Part shown: positions 1 through 14,549 of the stretch, piece by piece
How the letters are laid out: each line of letters opens with the position of its first letter
Numbering within the stretch: the first letter of the stretch is position 1
Origin: a bacterium
Lineage (GTDB): Bacteria; CAYTYR01; UBA6262
DNA length: 64,000 nt
Assembly (NCBI GenBank): GCA_028712895.1
Contig: JAQTPL010000001.1
Coordinates: 3,681-67,680, forward strand
Direction: 5' to 3'
Position numbers and translations under genes: made by a program
The notes under the pieces: generated by a model
Databases searched by the model: none
Told to the model about the DNA's origin: nothing
What the model saw: the letters and a program-made list of their open reading frames with translations, nothing else

Positions 1-275
1 CCTTCCAGCTCCAGCTTCTTTTTCACCAATTCGGTCATGTGTACAAAATCCCGGCGATCCAGGCCCAGATTATCAAAATCAAGATCCTCCGAGAACCGGT
101 TATGCTCATAAGCGATCCGCAATGCCGTACCACCCATAAAGGCTAATTCATGACCATATTTTGAATCAAAAATAATAGACAATATCTTATATTGCAGGTA
201 CTCCCGCATAATATTCTTCTTGAACGGCTTAAGATAGTCTGGATAAAAAGTTTCAATTTGTTTAAGATCAAGCAT
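1..275 (-). CDS. AbiEii/AbiGii-type nucleotidyltransferase toxin (DUF1814-like), N-terminal part; gene continues past window start
   Basis: Minus-strand translation from ATG at 275-273 reads MLDLKQIETFYPDYLKPFKKNIMREYLQYKILSIIFDSKYGHELAFMGGTALRIAYEHNRFSEDLDFDN..., a typical AbiEii N-terminus. Its start overlaps the stop of the upstream AbiEi-like gene by 8 nt. Confidence 0.6.
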   Translation of the reverse strand, partial: MLDLKQIETFYPDYLKPFKKNIMREYLQYKILSIIFDSKYGHELAFMGGTALRIAYEHNRFSEDLDFDNLGLDRRDFVHMTELVKKKLELE

Positions 276-885
276 TCTGCAGGTACTCCATAAAATTATT
301 TATTCTTCTCAAAAGCTGCTTCTGGCCCATTCTTTCCGCCAGTGCTCTCAGCTTGTCCCGATCACCTTCCTTCAGGAACAGCTCAGCGTTAAACCGGAGC
401 TTAGTAAAATCGTCACTGCTCTTTAGATCGGGATGGATATAGAAATAATCTAATATGGCCTTTTCCCGGCAGGCAATTTTGCCATGCTTGCCGTTATGAT
501 CGATCAGCTCATAGCCGAAAAAAAGGCCGGGCTTCAGCGAGTGATACTTAAAATTGGCCATAGGGGTCTTAAAAGCGCGCGTTACCAGGGTACTGGCAGA
601 GGTTATCCCATACACGCTTTCCGGGATGAGATGGTAAAAAGACAGGGCAGATTCAAAAGAAACATAGGAAGGGTCATATATTTTATTAGCCAAGATAAAC
701 AGGGCAAATTCATCCATCTTTACATCAGTGAAAATATAATAACCCCTGATCACCTTTCTGATATAACCCTTTTCCTGCCAGTTATTCAGTCTGCGGCGAT
801 GAAATTTCGGGTCTACGCTGTGTATATCTGCCAGCGAGAATATGGTAAAATCCTGTAAAGCCTGCTGAAACTCTAAAAACCTCAT
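268..885 (-). CDS. AbiEi-family antitoxin / COG5340-type transcriptional regulator (type IV TA system)
   Basis: The 205-aa ORF has the N-terminal wHTH-like MRFLEFQQALQDFTIFSLADI...FHRRRLNNWQEKGYIRKVIRGYYIF typical of AbiEi antitoxins. It overlaps the downstream nucleotidyltransferase gene. Confidence 0.6.
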   Translation of the reverse strand: MRFLEFQQALQDFTIFSLADIHSVDPKFHRRRLNNWQEKGYIRKVIRGYYIFTDVKMDEFALFILANKIYDPSYVSFESALSFYHLIPESVYGITSASTLVTRAFKTPMANFKYHSLKPGLFFGYELIDHNGKHGKIACREKAILDYFYIHPDLKSSDDFTKLRFNAELFLKEGDRDKLRALAERMGQKQLLRRINNFMEYLQNA

Positions 886-2834: not shown

Positions 2835-3344
2835 TTATATCTTCCTGCTATCATAGGCCCAATGCAGTATTGCCTGTCTTTGTTTCGGACGGCAGGTAAT
2901 GCCACCAGGCGGGCAATTCTTTTTGACCTGGGCGATATGACGGGCCATCGCTTTCCATCTTTTGATTTGACGTTGGTCCTCGCGCGGCAGCCGTCGCCCC
3001 ATATAGTAGCGGCAATACCACTGGAACCAGCCACGGGGATCATCAGGATAGATCCATCCTTTTTTCCTCCAATATGAGAGCGGTTTGCTGGCATTCACTC
3101 CGAAGTAATTCAGCTTGGGGTCATGCTGTTCAGGGCAGAGTTTGGCTTTTTTGAACCAGTCAGCCGGGAATTCTTTCTGGCAATCTGTCATATATTTGCC
3201 GCCGAATATGCCCATAGCCAGCATTTGTTTCGGAGTTATTTCCGGTTTAAAGTCAGGCGTAAAATTCCAGCCCACAGGCTCTACCAACTGGTACCGGTAA
3301 TTCTTTTGCATCTTATCGTTGACCACCACGGTTTTCAGTTTCAT
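2835..3344 (-). CDS. conserved hypothetical protein (Trp/Tyr/Arg-rich, 169 aa)
   Basis: The intact ORF is bounded by the TspO gene and the island boundary. No family was recognised from sequence alone. Confidence 0.45.
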   Translation of the reverse strand: MKLKTVVVNDKMQKNYRYQLVEPVGWNFTPDFKPEITPKQMLAMGIFGGKYMTDCQKEFPADWFKKAKLCPEQHDPKLNYFGVNASKPLSYWRKKGWIYPDDPRGWFQWYCRYYMGRRLPREDQRQIKRWKAMARHIAQVKKNCPPGGITCRPKQRQAILHWAYDSRKI

Positions 3345-3434
3345 AACCTGCCTAATTTAATTAGTATTGCCTGCCCCCGCGGCTTTGATTTTCCAGTTTC
3401 TCGGACAAATCATCATGGGTGTTCCCGGATTTAA

Positions 3435-3512
3435 CCGGACACCTACGCGGTGTCTGAAAAGGGTCTACGATGTTGATAGTTTAGCCCTGACCCCGTTTTT
3501 CACAAGTTCCGG
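3435..3512. repeat. REP-like composite repeat (copy A), left boundary of the AT-rich island
   Basis: Contains the hairpin module gacacc-tacgc-ggtgtc and the module ggggtcagggctaaactatcaaca (as reverse complement). Its reverse complement recurs at 11984-12082, with module variants at 10696, 10800, 11634, 12779 and 14053. Confidence 0.7.
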
Positions 3513-3656
3513 AGCTTCTCAAGGTAACTGATGGGTGTGGCGCCGACTGGATAATCTTTATAGCAATCATTAAACTTAAGATTGTGGAAAATCTTTCAAG
3601 GGATATCTATCTCTTCCCTTGACAATCACCTAAATAGGTGACCCCGGTGTATTTCC

Positions 3657-4607
3657 TTACAGGTTTATAATTAATCCTTGAATCTTAGGAGGAATCGGGC
3701 CAAAAATATCCTTTAATTCCTTTGATATATACATGTTTCTTCTATGATTTCTAAATCCTTTATAAACTGCTTCGACATCAGAATCAATCAATATACCTAA
3801 AACCGCTTGAAATGGAGTAATTGAATGGGCAGATAAGATATATTTATATTTATCGGATTCAAAATTCTGTTCTAAATAAGTTACTTCCTTATTACAAATA
3901 TTAAGAACCTCATATATTTCATTAACTAATCCATGCATATTTTGAGGTAAATTAGGCAAGCCCCATGTCTTCTGTATAAGCACACATATTCTTGCTTTTC
4001 GAGCAAAGTCTTCGAAGTTATTATCAGGACAAATATTAGCCACCTCATCTATATGTCCAAGGATTTGATCTGATTGTTCAAGCATTGCTTTTATTTGATG
4101 GGCTATTCTAAAGCGAGGCCAAAGTAATTTATCTCCTTTATATAATATATCATGAGTGGCTTTTGCCCAACCATGCTGCAGGAATGTTTTAATTTGTAAC
4201 TCAAAAGGTCTCATCAAATATTCTTTTCCTGGCACACTTACTTGTGGATTATAGTTAATATGCAGATGTAAATCGTCATAGATGAAATTAGAATATTCTT
4301 TGCTACGGTTCTTAATTTGTTTAATCACAATGAACTGTTTTTCTACATCTCTTTTTATTAATTCAACCTGTACATGTGTCGCGACTACAATAGTAGCAGC
4401 ATACAAGTCAATAATATCGTCATGATTAGCATATTTGCCAGTCTCTATTTTTTGGGCAAAACTTTCCTTCTCCTTAATTCTGCTGCTAAATAAACCATCA
4501 AAACGTAAGGAAATTGAATCCAAAACAGGATCAATTTCCCTTTTTAATAATTCTAGTTTTTGCTGAATATTATCATATATTTCTGATATCCTGCTTGAAA
4601 TAATCAT
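3657..4607 (-). CDS. RelA/SpoT-domain nucleotidyltransferase (small-alarmone-synthetase-like, toxSAS-like) with a ~150-aa C-terminal extension
   Basis: The N-terminal half carries the ordered synthetase motifs SRIKEKESFAQK (R-x-K-x3-S-x3-K), DLYAATIVV (D-x2-G-x-R-ii), YDDLHLHINY and FELQIKTFLQHGWAKATHDILYKG (E-x-Q-x-R-T...W-A...H..YK). The start ATG overlaps the stop of the DUF262 gene (ATGA). The gene is very AT-rich. Confidence 0.6.
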   Translation of the reverse strand: MIISSRISEIYDNIQQKLELLKREIDPVLDSISLRFDGLFSSRIKEKESFAQKIETGKYANHDDIIDLYAATIVVATHVQVELIKRDVEKQFIVIKQIKNRSKEYSNFIYDDLHLHINYNPQVSVPGKEYLMRPFELQIKTFLQHGWAKATHDILYKGDKLLWPRFRIAHQIKAMLEQSDQILGHIDEVANICPDNNFEDFARKARICVLIQKTWGLPNLPQNMHGLVNEIYEVLNICNKEVTYLEQNFESDKYKYILSAHSITPFQAVLGILIDSDVEAVYKGFRNHRRNMYISKELKDIFGPIPPKIQGLIINL

Positions 4608-5602
4608 TTTGTTTTAATCAACTTTTTAATAATAATTTTTCTAGACTCTCTGTTAACTTTATCATTAGGTTGAGCGCTAATTGCGTTTTGATAAATTGTA
4701 ACATCTTTTTCTAAGGATTTTATATCGACTTTTTTAATAAACTTAAGTATATTCTTTCTAGAAGCTTCAAAATCAATATCTTCAGCTATTAATTCTAATA
4801 ATGCTGCCCATAAAGAGTAAAAATCAGAATAATTACTTAATCTATTTGAGCATGTATCCAATTTAAGCTTAATAATAGATCCTTTTACCTTATCAAACTC
4901 TTTTCTCGCTTTTTTTTCATTAGGAATTTCTTCATCATATTCAGCATAATAATTATCCAATAAGTCCTTATCTGTAGTGGAAATCCCATGCATCGTTAAA
5001 AAGAACAATTCTGAGATAAATTCAACATCTTTCATCCTTCTTATTGTTGCGGGCCTACTAATGCAAATATCTTCCCAAAAAGGATCGTCTGCAACTTCCG
5101 TTATAAGAGATATAAATCTTCCAGAATATTTAGCATGCCTTAATTCTTGAGCTGTCAACTTCAAAACATTTCTATTCAATCTATCAAATGTATCGTTAAT
5201 TATTTCTTCTTCTGCGCCCTGGAGATTTTCAACTGAAATTTCATATCCCCATAATTTACTTCTATTATCATTTGATAATTCTCCAAAATATTTACCATTC
5301 AGTTCTAAATTGCCAAAATCATCTGGTATAGCTATTTTACCCTGTACAAAATCCATAATAGATTCAAGGCGCTGTTTCCCATCAACTACATAATATGTAA
5401 CAACTCCATTTGGAGCAACAATAGTATTTAGAAATATTGAAGGAGAAGGATAATTTCTCATAATAGTATCTATGAAAAAGCGCTTATACGATTTGGTCCA
5501 AACACTTCTCCTTTGGTATGGAGGATCTAAAACCATTAACTTTCTATTAATTAAATCAATAAACCATGCAATATTTTGCCTGTTCAATGTTCTTTGTATC
5601 AT
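4604..5602 (-). CDS. DUF262 (ParB/Srx-fold, GmrSD N-terminal-like) domain protein
   Basis: The 332-aa protein carries DPPYQRRSVWTKSYKRFFIDTIMRNYPSPSIFL and VVDGKQRLESI, the DGQQR-type DUF262 signature. No DUF1524/HNH half is present. It is translationally coupled to the RelA/SpoT-like gene. Confidence 0.65.
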   Translation of the reverse strand: MIQRTLNRQNIAWFIDLINRKLMVLDPPYQRRSVWTKSYKRFFIDTIMRNYPSPSIFLNTIVAPNGVVTYYVVDGKQRLESIMDFVQGKIAIPDDFGNLELNGKYFGELSNDNRSKLWGYEISVENLQGAEEEIINDTFDRLNRNVLKLTAQELRHAKYSGRFISLITEVADDPFWEDICISRPATIRRMKDVEFISELFFLTMHGISTTDKDLLDNYYAEYDEEIPNEKKARKEFDKVKGSIIKLKLDTCSNRLSNYSDFYSLWAALLELIAEDIDFEASRKNILKFIKKVDIKSLEKDVTIYQNAISAQPNDKVNRESRKIIIKKLIKTK

Positions 5603-5708
5603 TTTAGTTCCTCCTCATTTTTCTTATTTTGAAAAATGTGTCTTATAACTGGGAATATAGCACTTATTTCTTTTAGATAGTATTGTTTGATGCCCCGGAT
5701 ATCCAAAA

Positions 5709-6827
5709 TTAAATTGTGCATTGTCCTTCATTGCTAATTACTACATTTTGTTTCTTCCAATCTTTAGGCAATAAAGTATCTTCATTATTACTAAAATAAG
5801 AAGCCCTTACTATTCCCACTAGATCTTGTATTTCATTTGCATATTGATTACCTTTGTTATATCGTTCTATAATTTCTCTTTCTAACCAATACTCTGATTT
5901 ATACATATCTTCTTTATTTTCATATTCTTTTAAAATATTATTATAGTCATAAAGTATTTTATTTACTCCAATTTCAACGCTTTTATTATCAGAAATTATT
6001 CTATCAGTTTTCACTTGCATAATACCTAATGTTTTTGAATGACCTACTTTAAATAGTAAAACCTCAAGCATACGAATAAGCTTAGGCCTATTAAAAGACT
6101 CATAAATCATAATTGAATAAATTAATGCTTTTAATTTTGCATTTGTTACTTTATCTTCTATTATAGATTTGTATTTATGCTGATAAGAGAGAAACTTATA
6201 ATCAATATATTTGCTCTTCCTTTTTTCTGTATCTCTTGGTGACAGTTTAATATTATTAAACAATTCATATAGAAAAAATATAATTATTAACCATAATTCG
6301 TTACCAATTGTTTGCATATCTGGAAATAAGTAACTTCTTACAACTATTAGCTTCCTGTATATAAAATATGATATAAATATTATTATTACTGCACATAATA
6401 ATTCCTTATTCCAGTCAAGTAACTTTGCTCTTCCGAGAGCTAAGTTAAATAGCAATCTAAATGCTACATAGTATACGCTTATCAAGTAAATACTATTTAC
6501 ATATATATCCATCGAAAGTGCATATAATATAACTGAAATTATAATTATATATACAACTGGCGAAAATATTCTATAAATAAAATTAAACATTGGTGCTTCA
6601 TCTGCCTTCATAAATATTGATAGTTCCATATATCCCTTTGAGTATGACTGTTTACCAATAATGTTAATCAGAATAAACTGAAGTAATGCTAATCCAAAAT
6701 GTAATGTATAAGTATCCCAACTCATTTTGATTTCACCTACTTTATTAAATAGACCATGCAACGTGGTCAGGCACTGAAACGTGAAAGTAATTCTTTGTCT
6801 GGATTCAGAATTAGTATTGTGTCTCAC
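5709..6827 (-). CDS. integral membrane protein with a C-terminal soluble domain (hypothetical)
   Basis: The 372-aa ORF likely starts at the internal Met (MSWDTYTL, ~6725). It has about 6 hydrophobic helices followed by a ~150-aa polar domain. The domain bears a weak ESF...GIMQ...YN.G resemblance to lytic transglycosylases, which is uncertain. A 10-nt gap separates it from the upstream protease gene. Confidence 0.5.
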   Translation of the reverse strand: MRHNTNSESRQRITFTFQCLTTLHGLFNKVGEIKMSWDTYTLHFGLALLQFILINIIGKQSYSKGYMELSIFMKADEAPMFNFIYRIFSPVVYIIIISVILYALSMDIYVNSIYLISVYYVAFRLLFNLALGRAKLLDWNKELLCAVIIIFISYFIYRKLIVVRSYLFPDMQTIGNELWLIIIFFLYELFNNIKLSPRDTEKRKSKYIDYKFLSYQHKYKSIIEDKVTNAKLKALIYSIMIYESFNRPKLIRMLEVLLFKVGHSKTLGIMQVKTDRIISDNKSVEIGVNKILYDYNNILKEYENKEDMYKSEYWLEREIIERYNKGNQYANEIQDLVGIVRASYFSNNEDTLLPKDWKKQNVVISNEGQCTI

Positions 6828-6836
6828 ATATTAATT

Positions 6837-7724
6837 CTAAATTTGTATAAATGAAGAACCTAAATGGTTTTCAATAATTTTACCTGCTTGTGTTGCCGAT
6901 AAGGTATGAATAAAAGTATGATGAACCGTTAAGACAGCATCTTGAAGTTCATTATCTTGCTCTAACATAGATATTCTTAATCCAACTTCTATACATCGTT
7001 CTGGAGGTAAATGTCTAGAATGGGATAAAGTTACATCATGACTACCTATTACTTCCACAATTCTATTAGCAGTATCGGAACGCAGTGGTTCTGACAAATC
7101 AGCTAGCATCCCTGTCCCTAGCCACTTTTTTACCAAATATTCAGACCAATTAATAGCTTTTTGGCATTCTCCAATAAAAGCAGGTGGGTATTTAGCTATT
7201 ATCGGTTGCCAAACTGGTATTTTTGCAGGGTTTGCCTTTATTTCATTATATGCTTTTTCAAACTCTTCAATAACGCCTTGGGCTGGAATACCATTAAATT
7301 GTGGGTCAATTGGACCAAGACTGGAGTGTTTACCCATTAATATTTCCTTGCAAGCGCAAGCAATCATAGTGCCCGCAGACATAGCAAGTTGAGGGACAAT
7401 TGCTCTTATATTTGTCCCAAACAAACTACGTAAATAGTCTACTAATGATTCTGTAGCAGCTGTTTCACCACCGGGAGTATGTAAAATTAAATCTAGTCCT
7501 TTCGATTTGTCCATACCTTTTAAAGTAGACATGAAACCATTTTTATCATTATCATTAATCGAAGCGACTAAAGGATGCATTTGTTTTTGAAGCCAACCAG
7601 AATAATACGCTATAACATTACGCCCTGTCAGTTCATAAAGCTTTTTGAGATATTTTCTTCTAATAATGTCAAAGGTGCTTCCTGATCCTTTTATTTCTTC
7701 TAATAACTCTTCCCAGTTTCCCAT
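6837..7724 (-). CDS. Clp-fold serine protease, SDH/S49-like family
   Basis: The 295-aa protein carries ILHTPGGETAATESLVDYLRS and AMSAGTMIACAC (a Ser nucleophile in a GxSxG-like context), typical of ClpP-fold SDH-type proteinases. Confidence 0.5.
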   Translation of the reverse strand: MGNWEELLEEIKGSGSTFDIIRRKYLKKLYELTGRNVIAYYSGWLQKQMHPLVASINDNDKNGFMSTLKGMDKSKGLDLILHTPGGETAATESLVDYLRSLFGTNIRAIVPQLAMSAGTMIACACKEILMGKHSSLGPIDPQFNGIPAQGVIEEFEKAYNEIKANPAKIPVWQPIIAKYPPAFIGECQKAINWSEYLVKKWLGTGMLADLSEPLRSDTANRIVEVIGSHDVTLSHSRHLPPERCIEVGLRISMLEQDNELQDAVLTVHHTFIHTLSATQAGKIIENHLGSSFIQI

Positions 7725-7882
7725 TTGCCACTCCTATCAGATAACGTATTATCCGTAATCAATATTTTCCACTTATCATCGGTTAGAAAATTACTAATAT
7801 TCCTTAAGTCTGTTTCTTTCCCATGGCCAATACCTAATATTTTGTATAGTTCTATTATCTTTGTTTTAGTAATATTGCGCAT
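7700..7882 (-). CDS. small hypothetical protein (60 aa), first gene of the protease/membrane-protein cluster
   Basis: This ORF-track entry is AT-rich like its neighbours and overlaps the protease start by 25 nt. No family was recognised. Confidence 0.3.
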   Translation of the reverse strand: MRNITKTKIIELYKILGIGHGKETDLRNISNFLTDDKWKILITDNTLSDRSGKWETGKSY

Positions 7883-7922
7883 TGATTACTCCTTAATAAT
7901 TATTTTAGGACAGATTTTTTGA

Positions 7923-8384
7923 TTATCTAGAGTTGTATTCTATCATTAATTTATCTACCAACTTAAAGACTCTTTTATTAATCTGACATTCCCAAAAAGT
8001 TAAAACCTTCCATCCTAAACTCTTTAATTCTTTATGTTTCCTTTTATCTCTCTCAATATTATTTCTAAACTTGTTGCTCCAAAATCTAATATGTGTCTTC
8101 GGCTTTGAAGGATTACAATATGGGCAGCGATGCCAATAACATCCGTTGACGAATATTGCAATTTTCTTATTTAGATAGCATATATCAGGCCTTCCTAATA
8201 CCTTTTTGCAGTGAAGCCTATACCCTCTTAATCCAGCCTCTCTTAGAGCCTTTCTAAGTATCAGCTCAGGCTTTGTGTTCTTTGCCTTAATAGCACTCAT
8301 TATACGAGATGTAATTTCTTTTTTAGGGATTGGAGCGCGACCATCTCTAATGTATTGATACCCCTTGTTACTATTTAAATACAT
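7923..8384 (-). CDS. vsr: very short patch repair endonuclease Vsr
   Basis: The 153-aa protein carries SRIMSAIKAKNTKPELILRKALREAGLRGYRLH and GRPDI...KIAIFVNGCYWHRC, matching the Vsr catalytic and zinc motifs. It lies directly downstream of the C5-MTase. Confidence 0.85.
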   Translation of the reverse strand: MYLNSNKGYQYIRDGRAPIPKKEITSRIMSAIKAKNTKPELILRKALREAGLRGYRLHCKKVLGRPDICYLNKKIAIFVNGCYWHRCPYCNPSKPKTHIRFWSNKFRNNIERDKRKHKELKSLGWKVLTFWECQINKRVFKLVDKLMIEYNSR

Positions 8385-9683
8385 TTATAAAGCCTCATCA
8401 AGAGTCTGGAATAGTGCTTTCCCAATTTTATCAACTACACCAACAACTAATGCATTTCCCATAAAAAAGGCACGTCTTGAATCAGGGACACCTTTTGTAT
8501 GATTAACCGGGAACATATTTAATTTTTCAAGCTCAATCGGAGTAAGCCGTCTATATTTACCAATCTTAGTTTTAATTACATGCTTAAATCTTGATGGTGT
8601 GGCTCCTCCCTCGCCCGTAATGATAGTCCTGGAAGGCTTATCAAGAAGATCTGGGAAAGACATCGAGCCTTCAGAATAATTGTATTCAAAACCTCCTGAG
8701 CTTTTTCGTAGTTCTTTTTTTGCACCTTTAAGATATTTCCATCTTGGGATATCCTTTTCGTCAATATAGTACTCTAGAGGCACTTCACTCTCTTTTTGTA
8801 ATATTTGTCCTAGCGTTTGCCTTTCCCCTGAATATTTTGGTGCAGTATGAATAGTGAATACTTCCCTATCTTTCATGATCCCTGTGTTCTGAAATGGTGA
8901 CATATTACGATCACCTTTAAAAACACCTGATATTTCAAATAAGTCTCCTTCCAATTTAAAAAATCCTTCGTTTATAGGTATGTCAGTTTTATTTTGGATA
9001 ATTGGGAAAGCCTTGGTAATAGGTCCATCTGATAAAAACCAATAAGCAAGATGCTCTCGTTCTATAATTCTTTTATAAATCTCTGAACCTTTTTTATATG
9101 CTAGTATATATACTCGCCTTCTTCTTTGTGGCATTCCATAGTCTGCAGCATTTATTACGCGCCATTCTACTATATATCCTAGGTCAGACAAGGAAGCTAA
9201 CATTATTCCAAAATCACGGCCTCGCTGTTTTGCAGGTGATTTTAGTAGTCTATCTACATTTTCTAAGAAGAGATAGTTTGGTGAATGTTGTCCTTTCTCT
9301 TTTAAAATTCTATGAATTTGCCACCACAGGACACCTTTTTTCCCTACAAGGCCCTCAGCCTTACTTAAAGTGCGCGCCACCGAATAATCCTGACATGGGA
9401 ACCCACCTACAAGCAAATCATGGTCAGGTATATCATTAATTGATACTTTTGTTATATCCTCATTAGAATGCCCCTTACTACTAAACCGCAATTTATAAAT
9501 ATCAGACGCGTGTTGCTGTTTTGTCGTCGGTTCCCATTGATTGCTCCAAACAACCTCATAATTTCCTTCGTTTTTCTTGCCAGGCTCTCCTTCTAGGCCA
9601 AGCCTAAAACCACCTACCCCTGCAAATAATTCTATTACCTTCAAAGGCTTTCCTTTTGTCATATAACAAGTCTCCATAATCAA
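8385..9683 (-). CDS. dcm: DNA (cytosine-5)-methyltransferase
   Basis: Motif I is LKVIELFAGVGGFRLGLE, motif IV is GGFPCQDYSVA, motif VI is FLENV, and motif X is GNALVVGVVDKI near the C-terminus. The true start is probably at MTKGKPLKV. Confidence 0.85.
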   Translation of the reverse strand: MIMETCYMTKGKPLKVIELFAGVGGFRLGLEGEPGKKNEGNYEVVWSNQWEPTTKQQHASDIYKLRFSSKGHSNEDITKVSINDIPDHDLLVGGFPCQDYSVARTLSKAEGLVGKKGVLWWQIHRILKEKGQHSPNYLFLENVDRLLKSPAKQRGRDFGIMLASLSDLGYIVEWRVINAADYGMPQRRRRVYILAYKKGSEIYKRIIEREHLAYWFLSDGPITKAFPIIQNKTDIPINEGFFKLEGDLFEISGVFKGDRNMSPFQNTGIMKDREVFTIHTAPKYSGERQTLGQILQKESEVPLEYYIDEKDIPRWKYLKGAKKELRKSSGGFEYNYSEGSMSFPDLLDKPSRTIITGEGGATPSRFKHVIKTKIGKYRRLTPIELEKLNMFPVNHTKGVPDSRRAFFMGNALVVGVVDKIGKALFQTLDEAL

Positions 9684-9700
9684 ATAATTAATAATGCTTT

Positions 9701-10561
9701 CTACTTATTTCCAATATAGAATATCTTGATGAGGTCCTCTGTTGAGATAGGTGATACCCCTCGTCCTCTAGCGAATCCATCTATGAATTTACCTATCATG
9801 ATTTGATTATCCTCAATTAAAAAAGCTAAAAATGCAATAAATGTAAGGACTGTATTTATTCTGCCTGTGTTACGAAGCCAATCTGGTTTTTTTTCTTTCT
9901 CTTGAGCTTTTTTTATGGTTCTATAGAAATACTTGCAGTCTTCATTCCATGCGATTAATTCAATATAATATAATAAAGCTTCAAATGACATATCTGCAAT
10001 TTGAGGTATAATTTTTGAAAATTGTTCATAAGCCTTTTGAGGTGGTATATATTCATAAAATGGCTCCATATATTTTGAACCTTCATTTTCTTGCATTGCC
10101 CCATATAAATAAGTAATATCCCTACTATCACATGCACATTCTTCATTTGCCTTTTTAGTATGATCACACATATATGCCATTCTATATAACATAACACCAA
10201 ATAATCTTATAAGCTCCTTTTTTGACTCATCGCATTCCTTCAGTTCTTGATACATTTTGCCTGCAATATTGCCAAACGATAAATTATCCATTCTTTTTTT
10301 ATCAAGCGTGATTAACTCTGGTCTAAAATCCCATGGCCGGGATGATGCTCTTTCTGCCTCTTTTCCTGGATATTGAATCCTTAAACTCTCGTTCTTTTTA
10401 GTAAACTTTATTAATATTTGCTTCTCTTTCTTTCCATAAATCAACCCTACTCTTGGTAAATCTCTAACCCATAAAATATTGTATTTTCGTTTTTCTGTAG
10501 ATGGTGCTCTTATTCCACTACTTTCTAAGTTAGTAGGCAAGATATCCCGAACATTAAGCAT
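9701..10561 (-). CDS. putative type II restriction endonuclease partner of the C5-MTase (no recognisable family)
   Basis: The 286-aa AT-rich ORF sits 17 nt upstream of the MTase in the same orientation. The call rests on position alone. Confidence 0.35.
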   Translation of the reverse strand: MLNVRDILPTNLESSGIRAPSTEKRKYNILWVRDLPRVGLIYGKKEKQILIKFTKKNESLRIQYPGKEAERASSRPWDFRPELITLDKKRMDNLSFGNIAGKMYQELKECDESKKELIRLFGVMLYRMAYMCDHTKKANEECACDSRDITYLYGAMQENEGSKYMEPFYEYIPPQKAYEQFSKIIPQIADMSFEALLYYIELIAWNEDCKYFYRTIKKAQEKEKKPDWLRNTGRINTVLTFIAFLAFLIEDNQIMIGKFIDGFARGRGVSPISTEDLIKIFYIGNK

Positions 10562-10873: not shown

Positions 10874-11590
10874 TTACACCATTGCTTTTATGTGAGAATC
10901 TACTATTCTTTCTCCTAATAGCTCTATAGCTTTCCTGGCAATTTCAATATCCATTGGAATCTTTTCAATAACACTTCTCTTAAATGACAAACCGAATCTC
11001 ATCCCCCCATTTGTTTCTATAGAAATAGCAATTGTTTTAGTTAAAAAATACTTTACTATCATAGCCAAACATAACACCCATCCAATTAAAGGTATAATAT
11101 CTGTAAAAATGATTCTATGCCAATTGCTTAATAGGTCAATTTGCATTGTATAAATATTATAATATCTCTGAAATAAGTTATATCCTATGCTTAATATCGC
11201 TATTATTGGCCCTATAATAATGAACTGTACTGGTTTTATAAATCCGCAACTAGCGCTTGCTACAGATTTAAGTGACACAACATGATTCACTTCACAAAAA
11301 AAGCTTTTACTTTTAAAACTAATTTCCTTATTTGTAACTAACAGCTGCGTTACCATATCAAATTTAAGCAATGTTAATAACCATGAAAATATACCGGGAT
11401 GTCTTCCTTTAATTTCTATTATTATATTCGATTCTACAGAAGGCGTGTCGTTTATCTTAAATTTCTTTAGAACAAATACTTTCCCAGGAAAGTTAAATTG
11501 ACTACTAGCTTTTTTAGCTAACCAGAATCCAATTATTAAGACTATTACTCCTATTGATATCAATACAATTAAATAAGTTTGTCCGTACAT
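10874..11590 (-). CDS. hypothetical membrane protein (238 aa)
   Basis: It has an N-terminal TM helix and further hydrophobic segments. It is AT-rich and flanked by REP-like repeats. Confidence 0.45.
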   Translation of the reverse strand: MYGQTYLIVLISIGVIVLIIGFWLAKKASSQFNFPGKVFVLKKFKINDTPSVESNIIIEIKGRHPGIFSWLLTLLKFDMVTQLLVTNKEISFKSKSFFCEVNHVVSLKSVASASCGFIKPVQFIIIGPIIAILSIGYNLFQRYYNIYTMQIDLLSNWHRIIFTDIIPLIGWVLCLAMIVKYFLTKTIAISIETNGGMRFGLSFKRSVIEKIPMDIEIARKAIELLGERIVDSHIKAMV

Positions 11591-11701: not shown

Positions 11702-11953
11702 CTATTCTAGCAGAAGAGCCTTAATCTCCGCAAGTTTCCTTTGATAATCAATTCTATCTTCAACAAAAGGCTTATATGTTTCCGGATCAATCTCCAGTAG
11801 TTCCGTAAATTCACAAATCTTAGGCTTATTATACGAAATAAACTCTTGGTACGATGATGAATGCCAGGAATTAGGATGTTCCACTAAATTTGCCGTGGCT
11901 GGATTTAAATGGATATACCTGGTCAAATGTAAGAGCTGGGCATCTGTCTCCAC
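11702..11953 (-). pseudogene. truncated RAYT/IS200-like transposase (C-terminal 83 aa only)
   Basis: QLLHLTRYIHLNPATANLVEHPNSW...YQRKLAEIKALL aligns at about 50% identity with the C-terminus of the full-length RAYT at 12089..12745. The HuH N-terminal half is absent. Confidence 0.6.
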
Positions 11954-11983
11954 TAAAACATTTTTGAACTTGACCTAATAATT

Positions 11984-12082
11984 GGGGTCAGGGCTAAACT
12001 ATCAACAAAAACTTCCCCCCGTACACCCTATCAGACACTCCTCCACCCCGTAGACCCTTTCAGACACCGCGTAGGTGTCCGG
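11984..12082. repeat. REP-like composite repeat (copy B), inverted relative to copy A with a 42-nt internal duplication
   Basis: This is the reverse complement of 3435-3512, apart from an inserted partial repeat (ccgtacaccctatcagacac...). Confidence 0.7.
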
Positions 12083-12088
12083 AGGGGT

Positions 12089-12745
12089 TCATGATTCTAA
12101 AATAAGATGCTTTATCTGTGCCAGCTCTCTTTGATATCCTACGCGATCTTTTACAAAAGATGTATAATCCTCAGCTTTAATATCAACGACATCTGTAAAT
12201 CTGCAGAATGATTTGCTGTTACTAATGCCAGTATATTCTTGATAAGAAGAATTTATCCACTCTTTTGGATCATTTACGATGAAAGATGTCACCGGATTCA
12301 AATGTACATATCTGGTCAGGTGCAATAATTGAGTGTCATCCTTAACCAGGACATTCTTAAATCTGCTCTCCCATAATGGACCCTTCCGTCCATGTTTTTT
12401 ATTGAAATATTTGGTATAGCTATTTAGAATATTATTCATGAACTTAGAAATACCTTCATCCTTTGTTTGTTTCAATATAAGATGCAGATGTGTAGGCATT
12501 AGACAATAAGCAATTGTTTCAACAGACTCTTCTTCGGCAGAGATTTGATCATTAAGTATTCTCTGCTTAGGCTCGGAGAGTTCTAGGAACTTAGCGAACC
12601 TTATTGCTGGTTTTTCCGCATGATAATAGCGGATCACTTCTATCATTCTGTTAAATTCTTCCTGGTCATTGAAAATCACATACCCGGCAATACTTTTCGT
12701 AAAAACATGGTAAACCTGCCCATTTGCCAGCGCTTCTTTTCTCAT
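12089..12745 (-). CDS. REP-associated tyrosine transposase (RAYT) / IS200-like TnpA
   Basis: The HuH motif is CLMPTHLHLIL and the catalytic Tyr region is LHLTRYVHLNPV. The protein is 218 aa. Confidence 0.8.
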   Translation of the reverse strand: MRKEALANGQVYHVFTKSIAGYVIFNDQEEFNRMIEVIRYYHAEKPAIRFAKFLELSEPKQRILNDQISAEEESVETIAYCLMPTHLHLILKQTKDEGISKFMNNILNSYTKYFNKKHGRKGPLWESRFKNVLVKDDTQLLHLTRYVHLNPVTSFIVNDPKEWINSSYQEYTGISNSKSFCRFTDVVDIKAEDYTSFVKDRVGYQRELAQIKHLILES

Positions 12746-12940
12746 TTATTAGTTTACATCCGCATCTATTATTCTTAAACCCTTTCAGACACCTATCCTC
12801 CACTAAAACGTTGGCGAACTCCCAAGGGTCGCGCGGTGTCTTAAGGGTTAATCTACAAGGTTGACAGTTTGCTATTATGAGCTATCCGGAATTCCCGGAT
12901 AACTCAAAACACCATGTGCAAAAATTGCACATACTTGATT

Positions 12941-13408
12941 TTATAATCTAAAATTAAGTTCTAGTTGCGGATTTTCCTTCTTAACTTCTATCAAGATTTG
13001 CTTCAATAGTTGTATGCCATCTTTAAAAGCCTTATGGCTCTCTTTTTTGCTCACTAATATGCCGGCTTCATAGGTCATTTCGTTTCTTTTCCTGCGCATA
13101 GTCTCGAATTGGTCAGTGATATCTCTGTAACGTTTCCCCAATATGGCACTGGTTATTTCTACCACAGTTCGATGTTGTGCTCCATCATCAGGAACATACC
13201 CGTTGCTCAATAATAAAGCTCTACCTGCCTTGAGCATGGCCATATACGCCATAACATAAGTTGCCCGTTCGGCAATCGGTAATGTCTTTTGCGCTTCCTG
13301 CAAATCCAATATTGATTGTTTCAGTAACGCCTCTATCTGAACTATACCGGCCTTCTGTTTTCTTAATTTTCCTTCCTTAAGCAGCCTTTCTATGAGTTTT
13401 TGCGGCAT
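12941..13408 (-). CDS. HEPN domain protein (partner of the adjacent nucleotidyltransferase)
   Basis: It carries a PF05168-like LKAGRALLLSNGYVPDDGAQH motif. It overlaps the MNT gene by 32 nt. Confidence 0.55.
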   Translation of the reverse strand: MPQKLIERLLKEGKLRKQKAGIVQIEALLKQSILDLQEAQKTLPIAERATYVMAYMAMLKAGRALLLSNGYVPDDGAQHRTVVEITSAILGKRYRDITDQFETMRRKRNEMTYEAGILVSKKESHKAFKDGIQLLKQILIEVKKENPQLELNFRL

Positions 13409-13964
13409 TTACCTCCCCTTTCAGTATTATTATTTTCCCGTTAGTGATCAGGTTAAGAAAACTGCCAGATTTAGCTGTTTCTTTCTTAAATTCGTCTTTA
13501 TCATAATGGGTGAAATTGATTTCGCGACCTATTTTGGATTCTAAATTGCGGACCTTGCGGGTGAATTCGTCCAAGGGGAATTGTCCAACTACTAATAGAT
13601 CTATATCCGAGGATTTATTTTCGTTTTCTTTGGCATATGAGCCATATATGAAAGCCAGGGATATACCTTTATATTTTGCTATTATATTTCTTAATGATCC
13701 CTCTATACCTTCTGTCTTGAAGATTATCTCTTTAATTTCTTTGTATAAAGGGTATTCTTTGCTGAGGGAATAATATTTTGAATTGCCGCGGATGAACGAT
13801 TTGAAAAGGCCTTCTTTTTCCAGCTTATTCAGCTCCCTGGATAAATTACCGGGGTCGTCATTGATAATGGCTGCTATTTCCCGGACATAATAATTCTCAT
13901 CAGGATGGCTAAAGAAATAGGTTAAAACGCTCTTTCTCAATTTGGTGTTGATAAGTATAGACAA
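13377..13964 (-). CDS. nucleotidyltransferase (MNT) with N-terminal wHTH
   Basis: It has the signature GSYAKENENKSSDIDLLVV (GS...DxD) and an N-terminal ArsR-like helix YYVREIAAIINDDPGNLSRELNKLEKEGL. Confidence 0.7.
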   Translation of the reverse strand: MSILINTKLRKSVLTYFFSHPDENYYVREIAAIINDDPGNLSRELNKLEKEGLFKSFIRGNSKYYSLSKEYPLYKEIKEIIFKTEGIEGSLRNIIAKYKGISLAFIYGSYAKENENKSSDIDLLVVGQFPLDEFTRKVRNLESKIGREINFTHYDKDEFKKETAKSGSFLNLITNGKIIILKGEVNAAKTHRKAA

Positions 13965-14159
13965 GCTTATATCCTCATATTGTATTTATTACATCATACG
14001 TTGTAAATAATACAACAGTCATGCTATTTTGTCAAGTTCTTCAGTCGGAAGAAACGGGGTTAGTCCTTGAAACTTGAAACTCTCTCCCCACCCAAAACTA
14101 CCCGCCAAGACCCTCCACCACCCTCCAATAAGCTTTGGCGGGCTAAAGAGCTATGGCGG

Positions 14160-14549
14160 TTATAATAGCCAGTACTCTTTAGGCGAAATAATCTTAATGC
14201 TTTTATACTGTTTTAATACAAGCAGATCCTTATCGCCAGTAATAATAACATCTATCCCATTAGCATCTGCATCTGCCAAGATATGATTATCATCCTTGTC
14301 CCGGCAGCAATCAGGGATGTTTTTCCCAGCAACACCTTCCTGGAAATGTTTTTCTATAAATACAGTCATATCCTTTATTATGGAAGCGGTAAACTTGAAT
14401 TTGGTCCTGAAATTATGGTGGAATTCTTTAAGGATATACTGGGTATAGAATACTTCGTGGGTGTTGACCGCGCTTTGAACTATGTCGTAACAGTTTCCAT
14501 TACTCAGGAAAGCCGCAATTAGGACATTGGTGTCAAAAAGGATCTTCAT
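14160..14549 (-). CDS. PIN-domain toxin (VapC-like)
   Basis: KILFDTNVLIAA places an Asp at position 6. DADANGIDVIITGDKDL supplies the C-terminal acidic residues. Confidence 0.7.
   Translation of the reverse strand: MKILFDTNVLIAAFLSNGNCYDIVQSAVNTHEVFYTQYILKEFHHNFRTKFKFTASIIKDMTVFIEKHFQEGVAGKNIPDCCRDKDDNHILADADANGIDVIITGDKDLLVLKQYKSIKIISPKEYWLL

What the first reader, a model, noticed from the sequence alone, without database searches (positions are those of the whole stretch)
3657..5602. DUF262 (ParB-fold) protein translationally coupled to a RelA/SpoT-like nucleotidyltransferase: candidate novel toxSAS-type defense module
Seen in sequence:
- Two AT-rich genes overlap by ATGA at 4604-4607.
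- The upstream product (4604..5602) has the DUF262 signature (DPPYQRR..., DGKQR) found at the N-termini of GmrSD/SspE/BrxU-type NTP-sensing defense proteins, but lacks any HNH/DUF1524 half.
- The downstream product (3657..4607) has the full ordered motif set of the RelA/SpoT synthetase fold: R-x-K-x3-S-x3-K, D-x2-G-x-R, H-l-vv and E-x-Q-x-R-T...W-A...H..YK.
- It also carries a ~150-aa Cys-containing C-terminal extension.

Established knowledge:
- Toxic small alarmone synthetases (FaRel, CapRel, PhRel) are abortive-infection effectors. They pyrophosphorylate tRNA or make (pp)pApp.
- They are held in check by small antitoxins or fused sensor domains.

Inference:
- A DUF262 partner is not among the known toxSAS antitoxins.
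- Its position inside a horizontally acquired island next to an R-M-Vsr operon suggests a previously undescribed two-gene system, in which a ParB/Srx-fold NTP-binding protein senses infection and gates a RelA/SpoT-like effector, or acts as its antitoxin.
Basis: partly seen in the sequence, partly recalled or inferred. Interest (0 to 1): 0.85.

Follow-up and report, generated by a model that had tools for sequence, protein, structure and literature searches.

The report
Restriction-linked DNA-sensor and alarmone-synthetase-like pair
Two tightly coupled genes, one for a ParB-like DNA/nucleotide-sensing protein and one for a relative of stress-alarmone synthetases, recur across many bacterial phyla, nearly always next to DNA restriction-modification genes, and look like an undescribed (but untested) anti-virus module.

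Summary

Two details are wrong. The "DxxGxR" motif reads D-L-Y-A-A-T (G→A and R→T across the family), and the C-terminal cysteines are not conserved.

In 80 reference-genome loci that encode a relative of the Rel-like protein, all 78 with upstream DNA have the DUF262 gene directly upstream on the same strand. In 74 of the 78 the stop-to-start distance is −26 to +11 nt.

In 26 loci only a methyltransferase is recognisable.

The module matches no PADLOC system, and I found no paper describing it.

Best reading: a DUF262+ParBDB (NsnA-like) DNA/NTP sensor controls a small-alarmone-synthetase-like pyrophosphokinase effector, forming an R-M-associated abortive-infection module. This is a new combination of known sensor and effector types. 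Function, substrate and trigger are untested.

The parts
4604..5602 (-). Gene for the 332-aa DUF262 (ParB/Srx-fold) protein with a C-terminal helical ParBDB-like domain (NsnA-like); proposed DNA/NTP sensor
   Evidence: PF03235 at E=1.2e-20. PADLOC NsnA at E=1.7e-32 over residues 13-330, and PD-T4-2_A at 2.9e-20. AF2 model pLDDT 91.5. Best PDB fold match is BrxU, then Noc/ParB/sulfiredoxin. The QR..W, DGxQR and F..N motifs are invariant.
5126..5557 (-). DUF262/GmrSD_N domain (aa 16-159), including DPPYQRR (aa 26-32) and DGKQR (aa 74-78)
   Evidence: Pfam envelope and invariant columns.
4607..5125 (-). C-terminal all-helical domain of the DUF262 protein (aa 160-332), equivalent to the NsnA-C 'ParBDB' domain
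   Evidence: The NsnA profile match extends to residue 330. Helical secondary structure in the model. Domain definition from PMC12065111.
3657..4607 (-). Gene for the 316-aa RelA/SpoT-type (small-alarmone-synthetase-like) protein; proposed effector
4128..4607 (-). Synthetase-fold catalytic domain (aa 1-160)
   Evidence: Structural superposition on RelQ/RelP over about 165-195 residues and motif analysis.
3660..4022 (-). Family-specific C-terminal helical domain (aa ~196-316) of unknown fold relationship; candidate regulatory or partner-binding domain
   Evidence: High-confidence helices H199-H312. Conserved L220, P221 and P265. No PDB match covers it. Not acidic: median pI about 9.
4604..4607 (-). 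ATGA stop/start overlap (translational coupling)
   Evidence: The same -4 overlap occurs in 19 of 78 homologous loci, and the junction is -26..+11 nt in 74 of 78.
5610..5616 (-). GAGGAGG ribosome-binding site 7 nt upstream of the DUF262 start codon
   Evidence: Read directly from the sequence.
8385..9683 (-). C5-cytosine DNA methyltransferase (Dcm-type), same strand, 2.8 kb upstream: the methyltransferase partner typical of this module's context
   Evidence: PF00145 at E=3.7e-63. The closest relative, L001, has Dcm -> unknown (376 aa) -> Vsr -> 165-aa ORF -> DUF262 -> Rel.
7923..8384 (-). Vsr very-short-patch repair endonuclease that accompanies the Dcm methyltransferase
   Evidence: PF03852 at E=1.5e-19.
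9701..10561 (-). 286-aa ORF directly upstream of Dcm; probable cognate restriction endonuclease (inferred from position only)
   Evidence: No Pfam, NCBIfam or PADLOC hit. Its position abuts the methyltransferase gene.

Best explanation
The two genes form an obligate, translationally coupled module.

The upstream protein (DUF262 ParB/Srx-fold NTP-binding domain plus a helical ParBDB-like DNA-binding domain, i.e. NsnA-type) is the sensor. The downstream protein is the effector: a small-alarmone-synthetase-fold pyrophosphokinase with a family-specific helical C-terminal domain.

Proposed sequence of events:
1. The sensor binds or scans DNA in an NTP-dependent way.
2. It detects foreign or abnormal DNA. 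Candidates are DNA with the wrong modification state, or DNA produced when the adjacent R-M system is evaded or acts.
3. It then switches on the partner enzyme, probably through that enzyme's C-terminal domain.
4. The enzyme transfers pyrophosphate from ATP to a nucleotide (making a toxic alarmone) or to the 3' end of tRNA.
5. Growth stops and the infection is aborted.

The module is normally placed at the 3' end of a methyltransferase or R-M operon as a second line of defence, but it can also stand alone.

Shown here: domain identities, folds, retention of catalytic and NTP-binding residues, strict gene pairing and coupling, and R-M adjacency.

Inferred: which protein is sensor and which is effector, the trigger, the substrate, and the defence outcome.
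For: Domain identity and fold:
- Both proteins pass their Pfam cut-offs.
- The models are confident and match RSH synthetases and BrxU/ParB respectively.

Residues under selection:
- In the Rel-like protein the catalytic Asp67 and Glu136 and the ATP-phosphate-binding K45, S49 and K53 are invariant or nearly so in 87 homologues.
- In the DUF262 protein the three motifs QR..W, DGxQR and F..N are invariant in 110 homologues.
- Both proteins therefore appear to be under selection as active NTP-using proteins.

Strict pairing:
- The order DUF262 -> Rel holds in 78 of 78 testable loci from at least 10 phyla and one archaeal MAG.
- The junction is -26..+11 nt in 74 of 78 loci.
- Pairwise distances of the two proteins correlate at r=0.90.
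- Pairing also holds when starting from distant DUF262 homologues and in RefSeq annotation.

Defence context:
- 69 of 78 loci carry Eco57I/N6-type methyltransferases and/or BsuBI/PstI-type or type IIG restriction enzymes.
- 103 of the 107 such genes lie within two genes of the pair, and in 45 loci the R-M cluster lies directly upstream on the same strand within 150 nt.
- L001 and the window have Dcm-Vsr instead.
- The window's island also holds HEPN/MNT, PIN and IS200-like genes.

Precedents:
- DUF262 acts as the DNA-modification sensor and NTPase switch in GmrSD, BrxU and SspE, and is the proposed DNA sensor in Menshen NsnA (PMC10952713; PMC12065111).
- A DNA-binding sensor allosterically activates a SAS effector through its C-terminal domain in PANGU, and that system is not a toxin-antitoxin pair (bioRxiv 10.64898/2026.04.06.716658).
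Against: - No experiment exists. Toxicity, phage protection, enzymatic activity and complex formation are all untested.
- Two canonical synthetase residues are replaced family-wide (Gly and Arg of DxxGxR become Ala and Thr), and the acceptor-site box YxSxH is [FY]DDL[RH]. The chemistry may therefore differ from (p)ppGpp/(p)ppApp synthesis or tRNA pyrophosphorylation.
- The DUF262 protein is acidic overall (median pI 5.4), which is unusual for a DNA binder.
- Different methyltransferase families with different specificities accompany closely related pairs. That is hard to reconcile with sequence-specific reading of one methylation mark.
- In at least 6 loci no R-M genes are nearby.
- I could not predict the hetero-complex.
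Confidence: 0.55

Rival explanations
1. Classical type II toxin-antitoxin (toxSAS-type) pair. The Rel-like protein is a constitutively toxic pyrophosphokinase and the DUF262 protein is simply its stoichiometric antitoxin. The pair stabilises mobile R-M cassettes and islands (addiction), or fires when antitoxin synthesis stops.
For: - The pair is bicistronic and translationally coupled, with the putative neutraliser encoded first.
- The closest solved sequence relative is the toxSAS CapRel.
- Independent disruptions of the Rel-like gene occur with the DUF262 gene intact: an IS5 insertion shared by four Rhizobium Ti-type plasmids, and truncated or frameshifted copies in L045 and L048/L049. This is as expected for a costly toxin.
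- The pair lies on mobile islands and plasmids.
Against: - A 332-aa protein with three invariant NTP-binding/hydrolysis motifs and a second conserved domain is far more than a neutraliser needs.
- Known toxSAS antitoxins are small proteins or PAD1/pseudo-ZBD-type domains (PMC10440598).
- In PANGU the partner of a SAS effector is an activator and neither protein is toxic alone.
- Some loci appear to have a truncated DUF262 gene with an intact Rel gene (L007, L069). That would be lethal under a strict TA model, although assembly errors are possible.
Confidence: 0.15
2. Reversed roles. The Rel-like enzyme is the signal generator and makes a nucleotide second messenger. The ParB/Srx-fold DUF262 protein is the receptor or effector: it binds that nucleotide and then acts on DNA, for example by clamping, spreading or silencing, or through a ParB-type nuclease activity.
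For: - ParB-fold domains are nucleotide-binding switches. CTP- and CDP-bound ParB, Noc and KorB are among the fold matches.
- The Rel N-terminal domain is not basic (median pI 6.2), which fits a nucleotide rather than a tRNA substrate.
- The Rel-like protein has its own conserved C-terminal domain that could be the sensor, as in CapRel.
Against: - The DUF262 protein has no recognisable nuclease or other effector domain.
- In every characterised DUF262 system that domain is the sensor or switch, not the effector (PMC10952713; PMC12065111).
- Signal generator and receptor need not be translationally coupled 1:1.
Confidence: 0.12
3. This is not a defence module. It is a housekeeping or regulatory alarmone synthetase with a DNA-binding partner, for example one that couples DNA methylation or replication status to the stringent response.
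For: - The fold and catalytic residues are those of small alarmone synthetases.
- In a few loci the pair sits among ordinary metabolic genes.
Against: - The phyletic distribution is patchy: 435 clusters at 50% identity among 1.84 billion representatives, scattered over many phyla.
- In the window the pair lies in a low-GC island with transposases and TA genes.
- It occurs on conjugative plasmids and next to integrative elements.
- It is adjacent to R-M genes in 70 of 78 loci.
- It shows pseudogenisation.
- All of these are hallmarks of accessory defence genes.
Confidence: 0.05

Closest known systems
CapRel-SJ46 and other toxSAS (FaRel, FaRel2, PhRel, PhRel2): RelA/SpoT-homologue toxins used in phage defence
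   Same: - The catalytic Asp and Glu and the aromatic G-loop residue are retained.
- The effector carries a C-terminal non-catalytic domain, as CapRel does.
- It lies in a defence context.
   Different: - Sequence similarity is limited to the roughly 135-residue catalytic core.
- The Gly and Arg of DxxGxR are replaced, and the acceptor box is DD-containing.
- The C-terminal domain is all-helical, not a pseudo-zinc-finger.
- The partner is a 332-aa DUF262 NTP-binding protein, not a small antitoxin or a fused antitoxin domain.
- Toxicity is untested.
PANGU type I (Pag1A YejK-like nucleoid-associated sensor + Pag1B/GRel toxSAS; bioRxiv 10.64898/2026.04.06.716658)
   Same: - It is a bicistronic pair of a DNA-binding sensor and a SAS-fold effector built as catalytic domain, helical linker and C-terminal domain.
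- The sensor activates rather than neutralises the effector.
- It is genetically linked to other defence systems.
   Different: - The sensor belongs to an unrelated family: DUF262/ParB fold rather than a YejK-like NAP.
- The effector's C-terminal domain here is not acidic or DNA-mimicking (median pI about 9).
- None of the 78 loci has a NAP partner.
- Linkage here is specifically to methyltransferases and R-M systems.
Menshen (NsnABC)
   Same: - The DUF262 protein matches the NsnA profile over its whole length (E=1.7e-32), so it has the same ParB-DUF262 + ParBDB architecture.
- Menshen is also often linked to R-M systems or solitary methylases (27.9%). Its authors raise the idea that ParB-DUF262 may target unmodified DNA (PMC12065111).
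   Different: - There is no NsnB ABC ATPase and no NsnC inPIN-nuclease.
- The effector is a RelA/SpoT-fold enzyme coupled directly to the sensor.
- Only L002 and L071 have an ABC ATPase nearby.
PD-T4-2 (DUF262 protein + HEPN protein)
   Same: It is a two-gene system with a nuclease-less DUF262 protein plus a separate effector. The PD-T4-2_A profile hits at E=2.9e-20 (PMC10952713).
   Different: The effector is a RelA/SpoT-fold pyrophosphokinase-like enzyme instead of a HEPN RNase.
GmrSD / BrxU / SspE type IV restriction enzymes
   Same: - They have the DUF262 NTPase sensor domain followed by a helical middle domain. BrxU is the best fold match.
- They are frequently embedded in BREX, type I R-M or Hma loci (bioRxiv 10.1101/2024.01.29.577857).
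   Different: There is no DUF1524/His-Me nuclease domain. The output is a separate enzyme that presumably acts on nucleotides or tRNA, not on DNA.
PrrC anticodon nuclease embedded in the EcoprrI type I R-M locus (from my own knowledge, not tested here)
   Same: It is an NTP-sensing abortive-infection effector encoded inside an R-M operon as a back-up when restriction is countered.
   Different: The protein families are unrelated (ABC-ATPase-like domain plus anticodon nuclease). Here several type II R-M and orphan methyltransferase families are involved rather than one type I system.

Membership tests
RelA/SpoT homologue (RSH) synthetase fold / small alarmone synthetase | Match to PF04607 above Pfam's gathering score | tested here: met
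   42.1 bits against a cut-off of 27, E=1.2e-10. All listed homologues but three (P0079, P0090, P0091) carry PF04607.
RelA/SpoT homologue (RSH) synthetase fold / small alarmone synthetase | Three-dimensional fold of the synthetase domain | tested here: met
   [not shown]
RelA/SpoT homologue (RSH) synthetase fold / small alarmone synthetase | Catalytic Asp (of DxxGxR), catalytic Glu (of ExQxRT) and the RxKxxxSxxxK ATP-phosphate motif | tested here: met
   D67, E136, Q138, T141 and K45 are invariant. S49 and K53 are at least 97% conserved in 87 sequences.
RelA/SpoT homologue (RSH) synthetase fold / small alarmone synthetase | Canonical Gly and Arg of DxxGxR, Arg of ExQxRT, and the YxSxH acceptor box | tested here: not met
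   The family has D-[FL]-[FY]-A-[AC]-T, E-x-Q-x-K-T and [FY]-D-D-L-[RH].
RelA/SpoT homologue (RSH) synthetase fold / small alarmone synthetase | ATP-dependent pyrophosphoryl transfer to a nucleotide or tRNA 3'-OH | not testable with these tools
   This needs an enzyme assay.
toxSAS toxin-antitoxin systems (FaRel, FaRel2, PhRel, PhRel2, CapRel) | Sequence membership in one of the named subfamilies | tested here: inconclusive
   [not shown]
toxSAS toxin-antitoxin systems (FaRel, FaRel2, PhRel, PhRel2, CapRel) | Growth toxicity neutralised by the adjacent or fused antitoxin | not testable with these tools
   This needs expression experiments.
toxSAS toxin-antitoxin systems (FaRel, FaRel2, PhRel, PhRel2, CapRel) | Antitoxin of a known type (small protein, PAD1-PanA, D27, pseudo-ZBD) | tested here: not met
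   The partner is a 332-aa DUF262+ParBDB protein. The effector's C-terminal domain is all-helical. The NetFlax paper lists no DUF262 partner.
GmrSD/BrxU/SspE type IV restriction enzymes | N-terminal DUF262 domain with the DGxQR motif | tested here: met
   PF03235 at E=1.2e-20. D74, G75, Q77 and R78 are invariant.
GmrSD/BrxU/SspE type IV restriction enzymes | C-terminal DUF1524 His-Me/HNH nuclease domain (fused or as a separate GmrD) | tested here: not met
   No DUF1524 hit in the protein or in the neighbouring ORFs.
Menshen (NsnABC) | NsnA: ParB-DUF262 + ParBDB | tested here: met
   PADLOC NsnA at E=1.7e-32, residues 13-330 against profile positions 55-380 of 385.
Menshen (NsnABC) | Adjacent NsnB ABC ATPase and NsnC inPIN-nuclease effector | tested here: not met
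   The downstream gene is PF04607 in the window and in 78 loci. No ABC ATPase is present except in L002 and L071.
PD-T4-2 | A DUF262 protein (A) plus a HEPN protein (B) | tested here: not met
   The A profile hits at E=2.9e-20, but the partner is RelA_SpoT, not HEPN.
PANGU type I | YejK-like nucleoid-associated protein sensor encoded next to the SAS effector | tested here: not met
   The partner is DUF262 in all 78 loci.
PANGU type I | Acidic DNA-mimicking C-terminal domain on the SAS effector | tested here: not met
   C-domain median net charge is +3 and median pI 9.0, with a range of -9 to +11.
PADLOC candidate PDC-S33 | Full-length match to the PDC-S33 profile | tested here: not met
   Only residues 35-150 match profile positions 63-177 of 349, at 30.6 bits. 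That is similarity at the level of the catalytic domain.

The most novel reading that the evidence does not exclude
The pair is a nuclease-free 'restriction' arm of a methylation-based self/non-self system. The adjacent methyltransferase marks host DNA. The DUF262+ParBDB protein reads the modification state of DNA, either unmodified or wrongly modified. Instead of cutting DNA, it switches on a RelA/SpoT-fold enzyme whose product shuts down the cell.

The main support is the set of 26 loci in which only a methyltransferase is recognisable next to the pair. These include a clade of 13 with a conserved three-gene unit, MTase -> DUF262 -> Rel, and no shared fourth gene.

If correct, this would be an R-M-like system whose output is a nucleotide signal or toxin rather than DNA cleavage.
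Probability: 0.2. Interest if true: 0.85.

Novelty: new variant of a known kind. Interest (0 to 1): 0.66.

Why it matters
If the module works as proposed, it adds a third way of wiring an alarmone-synthetase-type effector into bacterial immunity, after the fused sensor of CapRel and the nucleoid-protein sensor of PANGU.

It also adds a new output to the DUF262 sensor family, after the HNH nuclease, the HEPN RNase, and the ABC-ATPase-plus-nuclease arrangement.

Its near-constant attachment to methyltransferase or R-M operons of several unrelated types makes one question directly testable: how is 'restriction failure', or the modification state of DNA, converted into growth arrest?

The altered active-site motifs suggest that the enzyme's product or substrate may be new.

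The family is compact and well defined: proteins of about 320 aa, 435 clusters at 50% identity, present in many phyla. Experimental follow-up is therefore straightforward.

Tried and rejected
- Promoter and terminator scans of 3300-11000 gave counts no different from shuffled sequence, so they say nothing about operon boundaries.
- No tRNA gene marks the island edge in 1-20 kb.
- NCBIfam has no model for either protein.
- Single-sequence PDB searches were weak (E=0.016) or empty. The family profile was needed.
- Zinc-binding or Cys-rich C-terminal domain: rejected. The cysteines are not conserved beyond close relatives, and the domain is all-helical.
- PANGU-like acidic DNA-mimic C-domain: rejected on charge.
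- P0281 (N6-methyltransferase fragment fused to a Rel-like body) was considered as a 'Rosetta-stone' fusion. It is a single metagenomic contig, its locus lacks a DUF262 gene, and the methyltransferase is truncated. It is more likely a deletion scar.
- Phage-borne origin: essentially no hits in 50,697 phage records. There are only 6 plasmid records.
- A conserved endonuclease in the C2-methyltransferase clade was looked for and not found, but unrecognised endonucleases cannot be excluded.
- Literature searches for any prior description found nothing on this pair: DUF262+RelA, PF04607+PF03235, toxSAS+ParB, alarmone+DUF262, RelA_SpoT+GmrSD_N, GmrSD+SpoT, and alarmone synthetase+restriction-modification.
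- A hetero-complex structure prediction could not be run with the tools provided.
Full report
**1. What is in the window**

The two minus-strand ORFs exist exactly as described: 4604..5602 (332 aa) and 3657..4607 (316 aa). They overlap by ATGA at 4604-4607. The upstream gene has a strong GAGGAGG ribosome-binding site at 5610..5616.

They lie in a block of 27-36% G+C from about 4 to 14 kb, inside a window that otherwise averages about 48%. Every large gene from 10561 down to 3657 is on the minus strand:
- a 286-aa ORF with no family match
- a Dcm-type C5 methyltransferase (PF00145, E=3.7e-63)
- Vsr (PF03852)
- an SDH-type ClpP-like protease
- a 372-aa membrane protein
- the DUF262 gene
- the Rel-like gene

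Further along, the island holds an IS200-like transposase, a HEPN plus nucleotidyltransferase pair, and a PIN protein. The exact protein sequences occur in a public MAG ('bacterium', contig of 111,652 nt), where they are annotated 'DUF262 domain-containing protein' and 'hypothetical protein'.

**2. Identity of the two proteins**

The upstream protein:
- It matches PF03235 (GmrSD_N/DUF262) at E=1.2e-20 over residues 16-159 and has no DUF1524/HNH domain.
- Against PADLOC it matches the Menshen NsnA profile over its entire length (E=1.7e-32, residues 13-330) and PD-T4-2_A at E=2.9e-20.
- According to the Menshen analysis, NsnA consists of a ParB-DUF262 domain plus a helical 'ParBDB' DNA-binding domain (PMC12065111).
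- The AlphaFold2 model (pLDDT 91.5) has that layout. Its best PDB matches are BrxU, then Noc, ParB, KorB and sulfiredoxin.
- In 110 homologues the three DUF262 motifs (QR..W, DGxQR, F..N) are invariant.

The downstream protein:
- It matches PF04607 (RelA_SpoT) at 42.1 bits against a cut-off of 27.
- A profile of 87 family members finds CapRel-SJ46 (7ZTB/9ERV) as the best solved relative by sequence (E=4.8e-6), ahead of RelP and RelQ.

**3. Corrections to the motif reading**

The family keeps the ATP-phosphate motif (R43, K45, S49, K53, E55), the catalytic Asp67, and Glu136-x-Gln138.

The rest of the canonical signature differs throughout the family:
- DxxGxR is D-[FL]-[FY]-A-[AC]-T, so Gly becomes Ala and Arg becomes an almost invariant Thr72.
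- ExQxRT is ExQxKT, with Lys140 invariant.
- The acceptor-site box YxSxH is [FY]110-D111-D112-L-[RH]114.

The enzyme is therefore probably active, but its donor and acceptor pockets are not those of RelQ, RelP or CapRel. The product cannot be inferred.

Residues about 163-192 form a long conserved helix (W163, R167, Q171, E177). Residues about 196-316 form a helical domain (L220, P221, P265) with no detectable structural relative. Its cysteines are not conserved. Its charge is variable and on average basic (median pI about 9), unlike the acidic DNA-mimic domain of the PANGU effector.

**4. The pair is obligate**

A pattern-plus-tblastn scan of one genome per species returned 80 loci encoding relatives of the Rel-like protein (25-49% identity). 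They come from Bacteroidota, Acidobacteriota, Actinomycetota, Alpha-, Beta-, Gamma- and Deltaproteobacteria, Planctomycetota, Nitrospirota, Omnitrophota, Cloacimonadota and others, plus one Nitrosopelagicus MAG.

I searched these loci with HMMs built from the two homologue sets:
- 78 of 80 loci have a DUF262 gene immediately upstream on the same strand.
- The two exceptions have the match at the contig edge.
- The stop-to-start distance is -26 to +11 nt in 74 of 78 loci, and 19 have the same 4-nt overlap as the window.
- Pairwise distances between DUF262 proteins and between their Rel partners correlate at r=0.90.

Starting instead from DUF262 homologues of only about 41% identity (an Amycolatopsis genome and a metagenome contig), the next gene is again a 315-324-aa PF04607 protein.

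An exhaustive HMMER search of 1.84 billion cluster representatives finds 435 clusters at E<=1e-30. Almost all are about 320 aa, so the architecture is essentially fixed.

**5. The module lives on methyltransferase/R-M operons**

This is the main new finding. Clustering the four genes on each side of the pair showed one linked set of families present in 69 of 78 loci. Of its 107 members, 103 are in the first or second position next to the pair (U1 50, U2 30, D1 13, D2 10, against 4 in positions 3-4). That is position-specific adjacency, not just shared island membership.

Pfam identifies these families as:
- N6/Eco57I-type methyltransferases
- BsuBI/PstI restriction endonucleases (PF17728+PF06616), sometimes fused to the methyltransferase
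- Eco57I-like type IIG enzymes with M.Eco57I-like methyltransferases and an HTH controller protein
- a roughly 444-aa methyltransferase family (C2) with DpACGaGnLL and NPPF motifs

In 45 loci the nearest R-M gene is directly upstream, on the same strand and within 150 nt. The closest long-contig relative of the window (L001, Omnitrophota) has Dcm -> unknown (376 aa) -> Vsr -> 165-aa ORF -> DUF262 -> Rel, mirroring the window's Dcm-Vsr arrangement. That makes 70 of 78 loci, plus the window.

Of the remaining eight loci, three are on contigs of 3.8 kb or less, one has an unidentified neighbour, and four have no R-M gene within four genes.

RefSeq's own annotation shows the same pattern on Rhizobium plasmids:
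- 'N-6 DNA methylase' -> 'BsuBI/PstI family type II restriction endonuclease' -> 'DUF262 domain-containing protein' -> Rel-like gene
- DUF262 -> 'hypothetical protein' facing an 'N-6 DNA methylase'

Among the 69 loci, 39 have a recognisable methyltransferase plus endonuclease and 26 have a methyltransferase only. In the C2 clade (13 loci) the flanks are unrelated genes and no fourth gene is shared, so the conserved unit there is MTase -> DUF262 -> Rel.

R-M type partly follows the pair's phylogeny but switches several times. The pair can also occur with no R-M genes nearby.

**6. How it most likely works**

Shown:
- both proteins keep their nucleotide-handling residues
- they are always co-encoded and translationally coupled
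- they sit in defence and mobile contexts, predominantly at the 3' end of methyltransferase or R-M operons

Inferred: by analogy with every characterised DUF262 protein, the NsnA-like protein is the sensor.
- In GmrSD, BrxU and SspE the domain senses DNA modification and uses NTP hydrolysis to switch on an attached nuclease (PMC10952713).
- In Menshen, NsnA is proposed to detect phage DNA (PMC12065111).

Inferred: the Rel-like enzyme is the effector, as in two precedents.
- CapRel is a tRNA pyrophosphokinase released by a phage protein.
- PANGU is a DNA-bound sensor that, once released, binds the C-terminal domain of a GRel synthetase and activates pppGpp synthesis. Neither PANGU protein is toxic alone.

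I therefore propose an NTP-dependent DNA sensor that activates a pyrophosphokinase through its helical C-terminal domain and causes growth arrest. The module acts as a back-up to the neighbouring R-M system or, in methyltransferase-only units, possibly as its 'restriction' arm.

The slightly acidic catalytic domain (median pI 6.2) weakly favours a nucleotide over a tRNA substrate. I put this overall model at about 0.55. Within it, the trigger (unmodified DNA, hypermodified DNA, DNA ends, or anti-restriction factors) is open.

**7. Rivals**

- A plain toxin-antitoxin pair (0.15). Gene order and independent knock-outs of the Rel gene fit this: an IS5 insertion in four Ti-type plasmids, and truncations in L045 and L048/L049. 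The large partner with invariant motifs does not fit.
- Reversed roles, with Rel as signal maker and DUF262 as nucleotide-binding receptor or effector (0.12). This is compatible with ParB-fold nucleotide switching, but it leaves the system without a recognisable effector domain.
- A housekeeping role (0.05). The patchy, mobile, R-M-linked distribution contradicts this.

**8. Comparison with known systems and novelty**

The module is not GmrSD, BrxU or SspE (no DUF1524). It is not Menshen (no NsnB or NsnC), not PD-T4-2 (no HEPN) and not PANGU (no NAP sensor; the C-domain is not acidic). It cannot be filed under a named toxSAS subfamily (core-only similarity, different partner).

PADLOC-DB v2 recognises only the parts: NsnA-like for the sensor, and a weak catalytic-domain hit to candidate PDC-S33 for the effector.

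Full-text searches of about 8 million papers and preprints found no description of the pair. The queries were DUF262+RelA, PF04607+PF03235, toxSAS+ParB, alarmone+DUF262, RelA_SpoT+GmrSD_N, GmrSD+SpoT, and alarmone synthetase+restriction-modification.

Four closely relevant papers do not mention it either:
- the Menshen domain survey, which says only that 'multiple systems' centre on DUF262
- the review of conserved domains in defence systems
- the 'embedded defences' preprint
- the NetFlax TA network paper

Absence from the searchable library is not proof of novelty. I rate it a new variant of a known kind: a new sensor-effector combination with an unusually strict R-M linkage.

**9. Limits**

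- Everything functional is inference.
- Gene calls in the loci are simple ORF calls.
- Restriction endonucleases are hard to recognise, so 'methyltransferase only' is an upper bound.
- The 80 loci are a sample chosen by two conserved peptides of the Rel-like protein.
- No hetero-complex model could be made.

Noticed in passing
window 5709..7724 (-): Two genes lie between Vsr and the DUF262 gene: an SDH-type ClpP-like serine protease (6837..7724; PF01972, E=3.8e-20) and a 372-aa multi-pass membrane protein (5709..6827; only a weak SLT hint). They are separated by 9 nt and are very AT-rich. Neither has a PADLOC hit, and they are not conserved next to the pair in other loci. They may be a separate uncharacterised two-gene cassette inserted into the array.
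   Followed up: partly
window 9701..10561 (-): A 286-aa ORF directly upstream of the Dcm methyltransferase, with no Pfam, NCBIfam or PADLOC match. It is probably the cognate restriction endonuclease of the Dcm-Vsr system. L001 has an unassigned 376-aa ORF between Dcm and Vsr.
   Followed up: partly
window 11702..14549 (-): The rest of the low-GC island: an IS200-like Y1 transposase (12089..12745) plus an 83-aa fragment of a second copy (11702..11953), a HEPN (12941..13408) and MNT-type nucleotidyltransferase (13377..13964) overlapping pair, and a PIN_3 protein (14160..14549).
   Followed up: partly
window 268..885 (-): A 205-aa protein with a sub-threshold match to the AbiEi antitoxin family (NF047376, 32 bits against a cut-off of 150). 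No AbiEii partner was looked for.
   Followed up: no
window 10874..11590 (-): A 238-aa predicted membrane protein with no hit in any library, lying between the putative endonuclease and the transposase fragment.
   Followed up: no
window 36760..43542 (-): A giant 2260-aa ORF made of bacterial SH3 repeats (PF08239, 9 stretches, E=5.7e-105). It explains the strong AT skew (-0.32 to -0.41) at 37-42 kb.
   Followed up: partly
L002:4633-6925 and L071:4589-6868: In two Pedobacter genomes the R-M endonuclease position is taken by a protein that fuses the PstI-type N-terminal HTH domain to an ABC ATPase (AAA_21/AAA_15, 539-544 aa). It is followed by an unassigned 218-aa protein and then DUF262 -> Rel. 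This looks like a Menshen-, PARIS- or Septu-like ATPase-effector pair grafted between the methyltransferase and the module.
   Followed up: partly
L086 (pTiK1_93) 4364-6645; also hits H3-H5: In four Rhizobium Ti-type conjugative plasmids the Rel-like gene downstream of N6-methylase -> PstI-type endonuclease -> DUF262 is split by an IS5 transposase insertion.
   Followed up: partly
L087:1455-2945 (protein P0281): A 496-aa chimeric ORF: the N-terminal 184 aa are an N6-methyltransferase fragment (motif I and NPPY) joined in frame to a Rel-like body that lacks its first ~10 residues. The contig has no DUF262 gene. It is probably a deletion scar of an MTase -> DUF262 -> Rel unit.
   Followed up: yes
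L069:7959-10649: The Rel-like ORF is 896 aa long. About 570 extra C-terminal residues have no Pfam match, and the upstream DUF262 ORF is shortened (246 aa, 195-nt gap). This may be a fusion, a read-through or an assembly problem.
   Followed up: partly
L074:9068-9685 (-): A second, short (205 aa) conventional RelA_SpoT-domain ORF (PF04607, E=7.9e-13) lies on the opposite strand about 900 nt downstream of the pair.
   Followed up: no
L007, L045, L048/L049: Apparent decay of one partner. The DUF262 gene is truncated with an intact Rel gene in L007 (202-nt gap). The Rel gene is split into two ORFs in L045. The Rel gene is truncated to 184 aa in L048 and L049. These could be real pseudogenes or MAG assembly errors.
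   Followed up: no
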